Below are positions 24,584 through 26,248 of a stretch of DNA of 29,596 nt, one piece after another. Both the position numbers and the translations under genes were made by a program. The DNA comes from a virus. The DNA lies in the UHGV virus genome UHGV-0100673. The stretch is one strand, 5' to 3'. How positions within the stretch are numbered: the stretch's first letter is position 1; every line of letters begins with the position of its first letter. The notes beneath the pieces are model-generated. The model searched no databases. It worked only from the letters and a program-made list of their open reading frames with translations, and was not told the DNA's origin.

Positions 24584-24672
24584 ATCAATGACTCCGTACG
24601 CAATTAAATTATTACCAATTTAACCACATATGATTTATTTATCGTAGATAGTTGACATTTAACGCAAGAATT

Positions 24673-24689
24673 ATTACCTTTCAGGTAAC
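24673..24689. promoter_or_regulatory. Palindromic operator-like site ATTACC-TTTCA-GGTAAC
   Basis: 15-mer TTACCTTTCAGGTAA identical to the site at 5523..5537; preceded by a TTGACA hexamer at 24653..24658. Confidence 0.5.
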
Positions 24690-25010
24690 CAAAGATTTCA
24701 TTCCGGTTACTAACCTGACTGGCTTGTCGTTAAATTGAACAGGTGGAGTGAGCTTTTATTTTGAGCAGTACGGCGTATGGCACATGCGCCGATAGCGGTC
24801 TGGATACGTTTAAGGTGCACCCTCCCTTGCTCGGGCAAACGAACCAGGTAGCCGGAATGTGCAAGTCGAGCGGTTTTATTCCGCGCACGGGGATTCACCA
24901 TCCCGGCGATTCGGTGTGACGCCTCGGAAGAGACGAGGGTACAACGATGAGAGCATTTATGGAGCCGCGACAAAGTGTGGCGCCTTAACAGGCTAAGTGC
25001 TCTCAGCGTT

Positions 25011-25087
25011 GTGGCATTAGCTCAGTTGGACAGAGCAACCGCCTTCTAAGCGGTTGGTCGCAGGTTCGAATCCTGCATGCCACGCCA
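25011..25087 (+). tRNA. tRNA-Arg (anticodon UCU)
   Basis: Hand-folded cloverleaf: acceptor stem GUGGCAU/AUGCCAC, D-arm GCUC-AGUUGGACA-GAGC, anticodon stem ACCGC/GCGGU with loop CUUCUAA, 5-nt variable loop, T-arm GCAGG-UUCGAAU-CCUGC, discriminator G and encoded CCA. Confidence 0.85.
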
Positions 25088-25130
25088 GAATCACGCCTAA
25101 GGACCGTGATGCCAGAAGTTCCAGGTGCTT

Positions 25131-25172
25131 GGCGGTGATGGTTTCCCTTGAAGGACTATCACCGCCCTTTTT
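25131..25172 (+). terminator. Hairpin with T-run downstream of the tRNA
   Basis: 9-bp stem GGCGGTGAT / ATCACCGCC around an 18-nt structured loop, followed by CTTTTT. Confidence 0.5.
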
Positions 25173-25250
25173 ACAGCAGGACGCCATTGCGATGACTTCA
25201 TGCTGTAAACCCGTACAGCCACGGAAGGCATAACTCATTGCTTCCAGTTC

Positions 25251-25273
25251 GCCCACTTCAGTGGGCTTTTTTT
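25251..25273 (+). terminator. Rho-independent terminator
   Basis: GCCCAC-TTCA-GTGGGC stem-loop followed by seven T. Confidence 0.7.
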
Positions 25274-25286
25274 CTAGTGACTACTG

Positions 25287-25303
25287 ATTACCTTATGGGT
25301 AAT
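25287..25303. promoter_or_regulatory. Palindromic operator-like site ATTACC-TTATG-GGTAAT overlapping a putative promoter
   Basis: Perfect 6-bp inverted arms; right arm overlaps a candidate -10 (TAATAT 25300..25305) with candidate -35 GTGACT at 25277..25282 (17-bp spacing); 30 nt upstream of ATG 25335. Confidence 0.5.
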
Positions 25304-25334
25304 ATACTGCAAACTAATAACACAAGGCCGTGAC

Positions 25335-26225
25335 ATGCTTGACTTCATCCGTGACATTTACTCCTCTTTCCGCCAAGCATCTCTTGAGCGGGTGAAAAGC
25401 CCGTTCCTTGGGGCATTTGTTTTTTCCTGGCTTTGCTTTAATTGGCAGATGTTAGCAATTCTATTTTTTAGTTCTAAGGATATTGAAAAGCGCCTTGCTA
25501 TTATTAATGGCTCTTTCGGCATCGTCAGCTTTTTAATTGCGCCAATATGCACTACAGCATTGATAGTTATCCTTTTACCGCAAATTAATAAATTGATTAC
25601 AATAATACAAGATAAACCTAACTCAGACACAATTGAAATGAGCCTTGCATCTAAAATAAAGATCGCCGAACTGCAGCAACTATTAGCAGAAAATGAAGCA
25701 AGAAAGAAACTTGCTGATAAAAAAGAAGAACGCTTCATTGAAGAGAATATTATTTCAATAAAAAAAGACCATGAAAAAGCAATAGATAACCTTAAAGACA
25801 AAGAAAGCAAAATCTCAAATCTCACGGACACAATAACTGAACTTCAGAGCAAACTGGTTAAAGCTGAGGCCACTCTCAAAGTTGAACAGGAGTCAAGATC
25901 CCAAGTGCAGAATGAATTGATTATTGAAAAAGAGAACAAGCGGAAATTAGAAGACAACATTCTGCACCTTAATTTAAGTTTAAAAAAAAACCAATCAGAA
26001 TTGGCCATTGCAAAAGAAGCCTATGATAATACCTTGATGGCTTATAATGAACTTAACACAACATTAAAAAAAGCAGAAAGCTCAATAATAAACTTCAATG
26101 CTAACTTTCCTTTTTTAACTGACATAAATAACAGCACCCCAAATACATACTTAAAAATAAATAAAAATGCATGGGATCATTTAGTTAGTTTAAATTTAAG
26201 TCTAAAGGAGAAAATACAAAAATAA
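25335..26225 (+). CDS. Membrane-anchored coiled-coil protein, AT-rich accessory (moron) gene of unknown function
   Basis: 296 aa; two N-terminal hydrophobic helices (FLGAFVFSWLCFNWQMLAILFF and IVSFLIAPICTTALIVILLP) then about 200 aa of Lys/Glu/Leu/Asn-rich heptad-like sequence; codons dominated by A/T with frequent ATA and some AGA; opposite strand to the flanking terminase and portal genes. Confidence 0.65.
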   Translation: MLDFIRDIYSSFRQASLERVKSPFLGAFVFSWLCFNWQMLAILFFSSKDIEKRLAIINGSFGIVSFLIAPICTTALIVILLPQINKLITIIQDKPNSDTIEMSLASKIKIAELQQLLAENEARKKLADKKEERFIEENIISIKKDHEKAIDNLKDKESKISNLTDTITELQSKLVKAEATLKVEQESRSQVQNELIIEKENKRKLEDNILHLNLSLKKNQSELAIAKEAYDNTLMAYNELNTTLKKAESSIINFNANFPFLTDINNSTPNTYLKINKNAWDHLVSLNLSLKEKIQK

Positions 26226-26248
26226 ATAACCAATCCACTATGGCATAT

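What the first reader, a model, noticed from the sequence alone, without database searches (positions are those of the whole stretch)
24604..26248. AT-rich membrane coiled-coil gene plus phage tRNA-Arg(UCU) inserted between terL and portal on the opposite strand
Terminase large subunit and portal genes are normally adjacent. Here a 1.6-kb insert separates them, carrying a + strand tRNA-Arg(UCU), two terminator hairpins, an operator-overlapped promoter and a strongly AT-rich gene for a 296-aa protein with two N-terminal TM helices and a long Lys/Glu-rich coiled coil. The base composition and orientation mark it as horizontally acquired cargo. The architecture is typical of single-gene abortive-infection or superinfection-exclusion proteins, but the function is unknown.
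Basis: partly seen in the sequence, partly recalled or inferred. Interest (0 to 1): 0.68.

Follow-up and report, generated by a model that had tools for sequence, protein, structure and literature searches.

The report
Repressor-controlled membrane cargo gene in prophage
Between the DNA-packaging and portal genes of an epsilon15-like E. coli prophage sits a swap-in accessory slot; here it carries an uncharacterised membrane-anchored coiled-coil protein wired to the phage's own repressor, next to a tRNA and a structured RNA that no RNA catalogue lists.

Summary
tRNA-Arg(UCU) lies at 25011-25087 (+), followed by two terminator-like hairpins. A 296-aa ORF at 25335-26225 (+) has 33% G+C against 50% for the window, two N-terminal TM helices and a roughly 160-residue helix. 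Its promoter holds a palindrome. The "insert" reading needs correcting. The window is a phiV10/epsilon15-like (Uetakevirus) prophage, and every relative examined has an opposite-strand block between portal and terL. Only about 1 kb (25.27-26.25 kb) is exchangeable cargo. Across 111 related loci this protein family fills the slot in 29. Others carry Phage_gp49_66 (38), a Tad2-like anti-Thoeris domain (5) and further genes. The family (phrog_13369) matches no named Pfam, NCBIfam, PADLOC or PDB family. It also occurs as an opposite-strand gene in lambdoid prophages and in filamentous Vibrio phages. Residues 1-140 are about 75% conserved and the rest 23%. The palindrome TTACC-N5-GGTAA matches the OR/OL operators of this prophage. 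Within this slot, only this cargo family carries it. I therefore predict expression when repression is lifted, not constitutive prophage expression. The most likely function is a membrane-level conflict role such as exclusion, which remains unproven. A structured RNA of about 200 nt upstream of the tRNA, with strong covariation and absent from Rfam, is the most novel item.

The parts
24377..24583 (-). 68-aa conserved late gene (epsilon15 gp3 / phiV10p06 equivalent) just upstream of portal. It is the left boundary of the slot, not cargo.
   Evidence: ORF list; annotated in the same place in phiV10, TL-2011b, EC.W1-9, SPN9TCW, BUCT711 and Tyrion.
24604..24700 (.). Divergent regulatory region. 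It holds the invariant block TTATTACC (24609-16) ... AACCACATATG (24622-32). The + strand promoter is TTGACA (24652-57), 17 nt, TACCTT (24675-80). The operator palindrome TTACCTTTCAGGTAA (24674-88) overlaps the -10.
   Evidence: Invariant across E. coli, Salmonella, Klebsiella and Cronobacter phages. Palindrome statistics. An operator lies upstream of the RNA in 101 of 111 loci. Coordinates.
24762..24966 (+). Conserved structured RNA, not in Rfam. Helices: P1 24771-75/24787-91; candidate pseudoknot 24780-85/24857-62; P2 24799-803/24844-48; P5 24890-93/24901-04; P6 24922-26/24934-38 with extension 24912-18/24940-46. A further candidate helix 24949-55/24998-25004 ends 7 nt before the tRNA.
   Evidence: Rfam gives no match at E<=10. 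On 22 sequences 97.4% of cells are paired, and 8 pairs change on both sides against 3.3 +/- 1.0 in shuffles. Covariance model R1 scores 176.9 bits here, though the window was in its seed. On 74 distinct sequences 13 of 27 pairs change on both sides against 6.1 +/- 1.1 (0 of 500 shuffles reach it), and slid controls give at most 3.
25011..25087 (+). tRNA-Arg, anticodon UCU (reads AGA).
   Evidence: ARAGORN; Rfam 73.3 bits. Present after the RNA in 77 of 121 related loci.
25131..25176 (+). Terminator-like hairpin T1 (14-bp stem) plus T run.
   Evidence: Scan; conserved in relatives.
25251..25273 (+). Terminator-like hairpin T2 (GCCCAC TTCA GTGGGC) plus T7 run. It is the left edge of the exchangeable cargo.
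   Evidence: Scan. The alignment of relatives diverges right after it.
25277..25305 (+). Cargo promoter: -35 GTGACT (25277-82) and -10 TAATAT (25300-05). The immunity-operator palindrome TTACCTTATGGGTAA (25288-25302) lies in the spacer and overlaps the -10.
   Evidence: The same palindrome forms the OR and OL pairs of this prophage and of phiV10. It is present in 23 of 29 slots holding this family and 2 of 82 slots with other cargo, both of those unclassified.
25335..25754 (+). Codons 1-140 of the 296-aa ORF: the conserved module. It comprises an N-terminal amphipathic helix, TM1 (about residues 24-46, invariant FSW..FNW), TM2 (about residues 60-82) and a juxtamembrane helix.
   Evidence: Hydropathy; invariant columns; 70-82% mean pairwise identity.
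25755..26225 (+). Codons 141-296 plus the stop codon: a hypervariable coiled coil and a small C-terminal beta-hairpin-plus-helix domain (residues 262-295).
   Evidence: 23% mean pairwise identity; AF2 pLDDT above 90 for the helix and 79-90 for the C-terminal domain.
26249..27718 (-). Terminase large subunit, convergent with the cargo gene (23-nt gap). It is the right boundary of the slot.
   Evidence: ORF list; annotated terminase. In 111 of 111 related loci with a TerL match, TerL lies on the - strand 475-1603 nt downstream of the RNA.

Best explanation
The + strand block between the 68-aa head-operon gene and terL is the genus-wide accessory slot of epsilon15-like (Uetakevirus) phages, not a one-off insertion. 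Its left part holds a repressor-controlled promoter, a structured RNA of about 200 nt, tRNA-Arg(UCU) and two terminators, and most relatives share it. Only the right ~1 kb (about 25.27-26.25 kb) is exchangeable cargo. Here the cargo is a self-promoted cassette for a 296-aa inner-membrane protein of an uncharacterised family (phrog_13369). The protein has a conserved module (amphipathic helix, two TM helices, juxtamembrane helix; residues 1-140). A hypervariable coiled coil and a small C-terminal domain follow. Its promoter carries, between -35 and -10, the same 15-bp palindrome that forms the OR/OL operators of this prophage. I infer that the immunity repressor keeps it off in the lysogen and that it fires when repression is absent, on fresh infection or induction. 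The most likely job is a conflict function at the inner membrane. I favour exclusion of competing phages, by blocking DNA entry or early development, while this phage establishes or runs its own cycle. In that model the conserved membrane module is the anchor or effector and the variable distal part sets specificity. SHOWN: the anatomy, slot structure, cargo turnover, mobility between phage types, identity of the operator with OR/OL, and lack of homology to named families. INFERRED: repression in vivo, membrane insertion and topology (weakly N-in/C-in), and the exclusion function.
For: Slot and turnover: phiV10, TL-2011b, EC.W1-9, SPN9TCW, BUCT711 and Tyrion all hold an opposite-strand block between portal and terL, each with different genes. 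Among 111 loci the cargo classes are gp49_66 38, this family 29, a 150-aa family 6, Tad2-like (PF11195, E=4e-26) 5, and others. Mobility: the same family sits on the opposite strand in lambdoid prophages between replication genes and NinB/RusA/Q. It also occurs in filamentous Vibrio phages. The promoter hexamers and 5' UTR travel with the gene, and the KO-TP1 copy even keeps part of the Uetakevirus left flank. A real, constrained protein: 376 clusters at 50% identity score E<=1e-10, and phrog_13369 matches at E=1.7e-142. Residues 1-140 are 70-82% identical and residues 141-296 are 23% identical. Operator: there are 6 exact sites in the window against 0.01 expected. The full prophage has 12 sites, including pairs flanking the repressor gene (OR 25182/25230 and OL 25942/26004 in L137); phiV10 has 14. 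The repressor is 100% identical to phiV10p40. By the ZX5 paper that protein equals ZX5 ORF21, and overexpressing ORF21 cut endolysin and holin transcripts by more than 99.9% (PMC9782041). The second operator is specific to this cargo family: 23 of 29 slots against 2 of 82 with other cargo. Not structural: opposite strand, sigma-70-type promoter, and present in only about a quarter of slots.
Against: There is no functional evidence at all. No homolog carries a name, and PADLOC, Pfam, NCBIfam and PDB give only coiled-coil noise. Foldseek against viral structures finds nothing at E<=0.001. The TM region is modelled at low confidence (pLDDT 40-60). Topology is undecided: K+R counts are about equal on both sides, and only net charge leans towards N-in/C-in. 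If the repressor keeps the gene silent, it cannot protect an established lysogen, which is the usual setting for exclusion genes. Lambdoid copies lack a recognisable resident operator, so regulation differs between contexts. The variability of residues 141-296 could simply reflect the low constraint typical of coiled coils. The same slot also carries a Tad2-like anti-defence domain, which would fit a counter-defence role equally well.
Confidence: 0.4

Rival explanations
1. Abortive-infection or toxic membrane effector. The conserved 2-TM module oligomerises and permeabilises the inner membrane. The variable coiled coil and C-terminal domain act as a sensor. Tight repression by the immunity repressor is needed because the protein is toxic.
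For: A conserved N-terminal membrane module joined to a hypervariable distal part is the effector-plus-sensor layout. One distant family member ends in leucine-rich repeats, a sensor-type domain. This cargo family is the only classified one in the slot with its own operator, which fits toxicity. The gene is AT-rich and mobile. A membrane-anchored single-protein Abi from prophages exists in S. aureus (PdpSau, abstract of PMC10127798).
Against: A gene repressed in the lysogen cannot abort infections of that lysogen. It would instead be expressed during the phage's own lytic cycle. There is no PADLOC hit beyond coiled-coil noise. No pore-former fold or motif was recognised. Lambdoid and filamentous-phage copies would have to be tolerated without this operator.
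Confidence: 0.2
2. Counter-defence factor. This would be an early lytic-phase protein that neutralises a membrane-associated host or prophage defence, with the variable part tracking variable targets.
For: The same slot carries a Tad2-like (Thoeris anti-defence 2) domain protein in 5 loci. Predicted expression on derepression or infection matches anti-defence timing. The protein has a hypervariable region.
Against: There is no similarity to any described anti-defence protein, and no conserved partner gene was seen in the few neighbourhoods inspected. Its presence in non-lytic filamentous phages and as an opposite-strand gene in lambdoid nin regions looks more like a prophage-expressed accessory gene.
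Confidence: 0.15
3. A function in the phage's own cycle at the membrane, such as lysis timing, inhibition of host division or envelope functions, or a membrane anchor for replication or assembly.
For: A membrane anchor with a probably cytoplasmic coiled coil is also the layout of division and envelope regulators (my own knowledge: EzrA-type proteins). Predicted expression is coupled to lytic growth.
Against: The gene is absent from about three quarters of otherwise similar phages, so it is dispensable. It is present in filamentous phages that do not lyse cells. Hypervariability is not expected for a conserved host target.
Confidence: 0.15
4. A virion or assembly protein that belongs between terL and portal.
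For: Position only.
Against: It lies on the opposite strand with a promoter of its own and 33% G+C. It is present in 29 of 111 slots. It is also found in lambdoid and filamentous phages. It has no similarity to structural proteins beyond coiled-coil noise.
Confidence: 0.02

Closest known systems
Morons / accessory cassettes of temperate phages (Hendrix-type 'more DNA' units; my own knowledge)
   Same: A single gene with its own promoter lies between two conserved phage genes on the opposite strand. Its base composition is deviant, it is absent from close relatives, and it is found in unrelated phages.
   Different: No terminator of its own was found before terL; the gap is 23 nt and only weak hairpins lie inside terL. 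The promoter carries the resident immunity operator, so prophage expression, the usual hallmark, is doubtful.
P22 SieA (inner-membrane superinfection exclusion protein; PMC10883804)
   Same: A small phage-encoded inner-membrane protein with no enzymatic domain. It occurs as very divergent sequence types and is proposed to act on incoming phage DNA delivery at the inner membrane.
   Different: SieA has 162-164 aa, three predicted TM helices, no coiled coil and a motif FxRYPxEAxxFNK, and it is expressed from the prophage. The window protein has 296 aa, two TM helices, a 160-residue helix and an FSW..FNW motif. No sequence comparison was run.
Lambda/P22 SieB (Pfam PF14163)
   Same: An opposite-strand gene inside an early operon, with N-terminal hydrophobic segments followed by a soluble part.
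   Different: There is no Pfam hit, and hhalign probability against lambda SieB is 0.2%.
T4 Imm and Sp (my own knowledge)
   Same: Small membrane proteins made early in the phage's own infection that exclude superinfecting phages. This is the timing predicted here.
   Different: They come from a virulent phage, are under 100 aa and have no coiled coil. Homology was not tested.
Stable RNAs co-transcribed with phage tRNAs (T4 rnaC/rnaD), and cis-acting phage RNAs such as HK022 put (my own knowledge). These are comparisons for the upstream RNA.
   Same: A structured, non-coding, phage-encoded RNA in one transcription unit with a tRNA, promoter-proximal and upstream of terminators.
   Different: Different sequence and architecture, with about 200 nt, at least five helices and a candidate pseudoknot. 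No Rfam family matches. The function is unknown.

Membership tests
tRNA-Arg(UCU) | Cloverleaf with anticodon UCU, scored by tRNA models | tested here: met
   ARAGORN; Rfam RF00005 at 73.3 bits against a gathering score of 29.
PHROG phrog_13369 (unknown function) | Full-length match to the family profile | tested here: met
   E=1.7e-142 over residues 2-296 against profile positions 2-303 of 305.
Known anti-phage defence proteins (PADLOC-DB v2) | Significant match to any defence-protein model | tested here: not met
   Best hits are JetC (E=0.008) and LmuB (E=0.019), over the coiled coil only.
SieB (PF14163) | Sequence or profile similarity to SieB | tested here: not met
   No Pfam hit at E<=10; hhalign against lambda SieB gives probability 0.2%.
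P22 SieA | About 160 aa, three TM helices, cytoplasmic motif FxRYPxEAxxFNK (PMC10883804) | tested here: not met
   The window protein has 296 aa, two hydropathy peaks and no such motif in the sequence. No direct alignment was run.
Superinfection exclusion / abortive infection (functional class) | Reduces infection by other phages when expressed | not testable with these tools
   This needs phage challenge of an expressing strain.
Moron / accessory cassette | Absent from close relatives at the same site | tested here: met
   Present in 29 of 111 slots, and 31 of 5426 complete E. coli genomes carry the gene.
Moron / accessory cassette | Own promoter and own terminator | tested here: inconclusive
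   Promoter hexamers are conserved across contexts. No convincing terminator lies between the stop codon at 26225 and terL at 26249.
Moron / accessory cassette | Expressed from the repressed prophage | not testable with these tools
   The sequence argues against it, because the immunity operator sits in the promoter spacer. RNA-seq or a reporter is needed.
Immunity-repressor operator of phiV10-type phages | Same palindrome as the sites flanking the repressor gene | tested here: met
   TTACC-N5-GGTAA forms the OR and OL pairs in L137 and in phiV10. The repressors are 100% identical. Binding itself was not tested.
Any Rfam 15 family (for the RNA at 24762-24966) | Covariance-model match | tested here: not met
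   No match at E<=10 on either strand.
Structured non-coding RNA (generic) | Conserved base pairs kept by compensatory changes, and no reading frame | tested here: met
   13 of 27 pairs change on both sides against 6.1 +/- 1.1 in shuffles, with 96.6% of cells paired. A 1-nt indel inside a conserved block (CGATAGCGG against CG-CAGCGG) breaks any reading frame.

The most novel reading that the evidence does not exclude
The portal-terL gap of epsilon15-like phages may be a repressor-gated 'conflict module' with two new parts. The first would be a new class of complex-folded phage RNA (about 200 nt, candidate pseudoknot, invariant loops) that acts with or on the tRNA transcription unit. It could work as a processive antiterminator that lets promoter-less cargo be read through two terminators, as a decoy, or as a ribozyme. 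The second would be a new family of inner-membrane effectors whose hypervariable coiled coil reads out competing phages, switched on only when immunity is lifted.
Probability: 0.2. Interest if true: 0.75.

Novelty: new variant of a known kind. Interest (0 to 1): 0.55.

Why it matters
This gives a concrete map of a phage accessory hotspot, with conserved flanks and one exchangeable gene, in a genus used for O157 typing and biocontrol. The 296-aa protein belongs to a widespread family: 376 clusters at 50% identity in the profile search. It moves between podophages, lambdoid phages and filamentous phages, and no name or function is recorded for it in any source searched here. Its coupling to the immunity operator makes a clear, testable prediction about when it acts. 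The upstream RNA is a well-supported structured RNA family missing from Rfam, in phages that have been sequenced for twenty years. Phage-encoded complex-folded RNAs of known function are few, so it is a good target for experiment.

Tried and rejected
Searches for the protein gave only coiled-coil noise. This applies to Pfam, NCBIfam and PADLOC scans of the protein and about 18 distant relatives. It also applies to a PDB profile search, which returned myosin, tropomyosin and SMC. Foldseek against viral structures found nothing at E<=0.001. The afdb50 library was not available. hhalign against lambda SieB was negative. A homolog search from the Vibrio inovirus copy returned only 3 close relatives. 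A cluster-name look-up of 10 distant members returned only 'hypothetical'. Literature: no paper links Uetakevirus with this gene or this RNA. No paper contains the RNA or peptide strings. The DefensePredictor supplements do not contain the family. The epsilon15 genome paper is not held. The positive-inside rule across 166 family members was not decisive. I searched the lambdoid copies for a resident-phage operator in their promoters and found none. I considered that the conserved DNA at 24770-24958 codes for protein (ORFs 24710-24973 on the - strand and 24761-24919 on the + strand). I rejected this because of frame-breaking indels in conserved blocks and the covariation. I considered a link between the tRNA and the cargo gene through AGA codons and rejected it. 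The gene has only 2 AGA, while AGA is concentrated in tail and ejection genes. A packaging-RNA role for the RNA is unlikely, because an epsilon15-type phage has lost its 3' two-thirds together with the tRNA.
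Full report
WHAT THE WINDOW IS. The window is most of an epsilon15/phiV10-like (genus Uetakevirus) prophage of E. coli. The 1-kb stretch carrying the cargo gene (25250-26260) is 100% identical to a stretch of the E. coli PK6 chromosome, where the prophage lies next to guaA. On the - strand it carries terS, terL (26249-27718), a 68-aa gene (24377-24583), portal (22683-24362), and head and tail genes.

CHECK OF THE OBSERVATION. All listed elements are there.
- ARAGORN finds a single tRNA, tRNA-Arg(tct), at 25011-25087 (+). 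Rfam confirms it at 73 bits.
- Two terminator-like hairpins with T runs follow, at 25131-25166 and 25251-25266.
- The 296-aa ORF (25335-26225, +) has 33.4% G+C against 49.6% for the window.
- Hydropathy gives two TM segments, at residues 24-46 and 60-82.
- AlphaFold2 on a 55-sequence alignment gives a low-confidence TM region and one long helix over 97-257 at pLDDT above 90. A small beta-hairpin-plus-helix domain follows at 262-295.
- Heptad periodicity is present.
- The promoter GTGACT-17-TAATAT has the palindrome TTACCTTATGGGTAA in its spacer and -10.

THE "INSERT" IS A GENUS-WIDE SLOT. megablast against phage records covers at most 53% of the 2.1-kb query. The left half is 94-98% identical in phiV10, TL-2011b, EC.W1-9, ZX5 and the O157 typing phages, and about 80% identical in Salmonella and Klebsiella relatives. 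The 296-aa gene is absent from them. Annotated records show the same layout everywhere: portal, the 68-aa gene, then an opposite-strand block, then terL. The gene next to terL differs between phages:
- a Phage_gp49_66 protein in phiV10
- a 115-aa repeat protein in TL-2011b
- a TM protein in SPN9TCW
- three small genes in Tyrion
- distant homologs of the window protein in EC.W1-9 (201 aa) and Klebsiella phage BUCT711 (263 aa)

I collected 152 related loci through a conserved RNA motif. TerL lies on the - strand 475-1603 nt downstream in all 111 loci where it is in range. The cargo classes are gp49_66 38, this family 29, a 150-aa family 6, a Tad2-like domain 5, an SPN9TCW-type protein 3, the repeat protein 2, and unclassified 28. 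The alignment of relatives diverges right after terminator T2. The exchangeable part is therefore about 25.27-26.25 kb. The tRNA belongs to the conserved part.

THE PROTEIN FAMILY. The protein matches phrog_13369 (unknown function) end to end at E=1.7e-142.
- Nothing appears in Pfam, PADLOC or NCBIfam beyond coiled-coil noise.
- A 5.8-billion-protein search gives 176 homologs in Escherichia, Citrobacter, Leclercia, Cronobacter, Klebsiella, Enterobacter and Hafnia, none with an informative name (the few names given are 'hypothetical protein', or an automatic 'chromosome segregation ATPase').
- A profile search of 1.84 billion representatives gives 376 clusters at E<=1e-10. Most members are 230-350 aa and start with the same N-terminal domain.
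- One distant member ends in leucine-rich repeats.
- Conservation is sharply two-part. Residues 1-140 show 70-82% mean pairwise identity, with the invariant motif F30-S31-W32..F35-N36-W37. Residues 141-296 show 23%.
- PDB profile and viral-structure fold searches give nothing specific.
- hhalign against lambda SieB is negative.
- P22 SieA differs in length, TM number and motif.

MOBILITY. The family occupies the Uetakevirus slot in E. coli and Cronobacter prophages. It also lies on the opposite strand of lambdoid prophages between the replication genes and NinB/RusA/Q. It occurs in filamentous Vibrio phages as well. The promoter hexamers and 5' UTR move with the gene. The Klebsiella lambdoid copy even retains part of the Uetakevirus left flank. 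This settles that the gene is an accessory cassette and not a virion gene.

REGULATION. The palindrome TTACC-N5-GGTAA occurs 6 times in the window against 0.01 expected. In the full prophage, allowing one mismatch, there are 12 sites against 0.55 expected. They include a pair between the cro-like gene and the HTH repressor gene, and a pair just downstream of the repressor gene. Further sites lie at terS, int, the RNA-tRNA promoter and the cargo promoter. phiV10 shows the same pattern with 14 sites. The repressor is 100% identical to phiV10p40. The ZX5 paper reports that protein as identical to its ORF21, and overexpressing ORF21 shut down lytic transcripts. The palindrome is therefore most simply the immunity operator.

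At the cargo promoter the operator fills the spacer and overlaps the -10. At the RNA-tRNA promoter (TTGACA-17-TACCTT) it overlaps the -10. Both are repressing positions. Among cargo classes the second operator is almost exclusive to this family: 23 of 29 slots against 2 of 82, both of those in the unclassified class. I infer that the gene is off in the lysogen and on after infection or induction, and that this tight control may reflect toxicity. Lambdoid copies keep the hexamers but not the palindrome, and I found no resident operator there.

MECHANISM. No enzyme domain is present. What remains is a conserved membrane module joined to a variable rod and tip. The gene is dispensable, mobile across phage types including non-lytic ones, and repressor-gated in this genus. 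This fits a conflict function at the inner membrane best. I favour exclusion of competing phages during the phage's own establishment or lytic phase (0.4). A toxic or abortive effector (0.2), a counter-defence factor (0.15) and a function in the phage's own cycle (0.15) follow. The counter-defence idea draws on the Tad2-like domain found in the same slot. Net charge across 166 family members leans towards a cytoplasmic coiled coil, but only weakly. All functional statements are inference.

THE RNA (not in the finding as written, but inside its coordinates). The stretch between the operator and the tRNA contains invariant blocks separated by variable-length inserts across genera.
Together with loci fetched earlier, these gave 107 distinct sequences of the segment, 49-100% identical to the window.
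- A 19-mer found 24 species genomes. All are Enterobacterales except two probably contaminated MAGs.
- Rfam has no match even at E<=10.
- A hand-built structure on 22 sequences is 97.4% paired. Eight pairs change on both sides against 3.3 +/- 1.0 in shuffles, and slid controls give at most 2.
- A covariance model finds exactly one copy per Uetakevirus-type locus that contains the RNA motif, and none in lambdoid or inovirus loci.
- On 74 distinct sequences, 13 of 27 pairs change on both sides against 6.1 +/- 1.1, with 0 of 500 shuffles reaching the observed value. That alignment is fitted to the model and so leans towards the structure. The independent MAFFT result agrees.
- G.U pairs and a frame-breaking 1-nt indel point to a + strand non-coding RNA.
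- A candidate pseudoknot (GCACAU 24780-85 with AUGUGC 24857-62) never varies. Its only support is a variant in which the UGGCACAUG block has moved 5' of a tight P1 hairpin.
- The tRNA follows the RNA in 77 of 121 loci.
- An epsilon15-type Salmonella phage has deleted the RNA's 3' two-thirds, the tRNA and half of T1, so the RNA is dispensable.
- Its function is unknown. Cargo such as phiV10p03 starts about 20 nt after T2 with no promoter of its own. A role in read-through is therefore one testable idea.

VERDICT. The gene is a new, uncharacterised family within a known kind of element. The repressor-gated promoter and the uncatalogued RNA are the points worth an experiment.

Noticed in passing
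window 24762-24966 (+), possibly to 25004: A conserved structured RNA of about 200 nt lies upstream of the tRNA-Arg. It has at least five covarying helices and a candidate pseudoknot. It is absent from Rfam 15 and present in Uetakevirus-type (pro)phages of many Enterobacterales. Its function is unknown.
   Followed up: yes
window 5523, 5903, 6955, 24674, 25288, 28365; L137 25182/25230 and 25942/26004: The 15-bp palindrome TTACC-N5-GGTAA is the likely immunity operator. It sits in front of almost every transcription unit: terS, int, the antirepressor region, the RNA-tRNA unit and the cargo gene. The repressor therefore seems to control late and accessory promoters directly.
   Followed up: yes
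window 24609-24632 and about 5463-5500: A second shared module (TTATTACC, 6-8 nt, AACCACATATG) lies upstream of the portal operon and of the tailspike gene when read on the - strand. It may be a late promoter or activator site that restarts the structural operon after the cargo slot.
   Followed up: partly
L036 and 4 other related loci (same slot): Some relatives carry a protein with a Tad2-like (Thoeris anti-defence 2, PF11195, E=4e-26) domain in the same slot. The slot therefore also holds candidate counter-defence genes.
   Followed up: partly
window 25017-25256 (-); phiV10 PhiV10p04, TL-2011b gp24, EC.W1-9 WYA78230: Several public records annotate a 79-83-aa CDS on the - strand that overlaps the tRNA-Arg and the terminators. 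It is probably a spurious gene call.
   Followed up: no
window 25170-25250: The spacer between the two terminators is conserved among relatives. It also appears upstream of the family member in the lambdoid Klebsiella phage KO-TP1 (cattgcttccagttcgc). It looks like a recombination joint for cargo exchange.
   Followed up: partly
L203 3586-3680 (Salmonella phage VB_ST_E15): An epsilon15-type phage keeps the promoter and operator but has a deletion. The deletion runs from the RNA's P2 region to the 3' half of terminator T1 and removes the tRNA.
   Followed up: partly
window 5596-5871 (+) and 6187-6882 (+): A Bro-N-type antirepressor-like gene (231 aa) has an operator upstream of it (5903). A 91-aa ORF before it has a C-terminus that appears, by eye, to resemble the antirepressor's. 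The layout recalls the P22 immI region next to the tailspike gene.
   Followed up: no
window, late genes 8604-18876 (-): AGA codons are absent from terS, terL, portal, protease and capsid genes. They are concentrated in the tail and internal-virion genes (3.5-16.5 per 1000). This suggests the phage tRNA-Arg(UCU) serves those genes rather than the cargo gene.
   Followed up: partly
P0263 (distant family member, 370 aa): One distant relative of the 296-aa protein carries C-terminal leucine-rich repeats in place of the small C-terminal domain. This hints that the distal end is a swappable recognition module.
   Followed up: no
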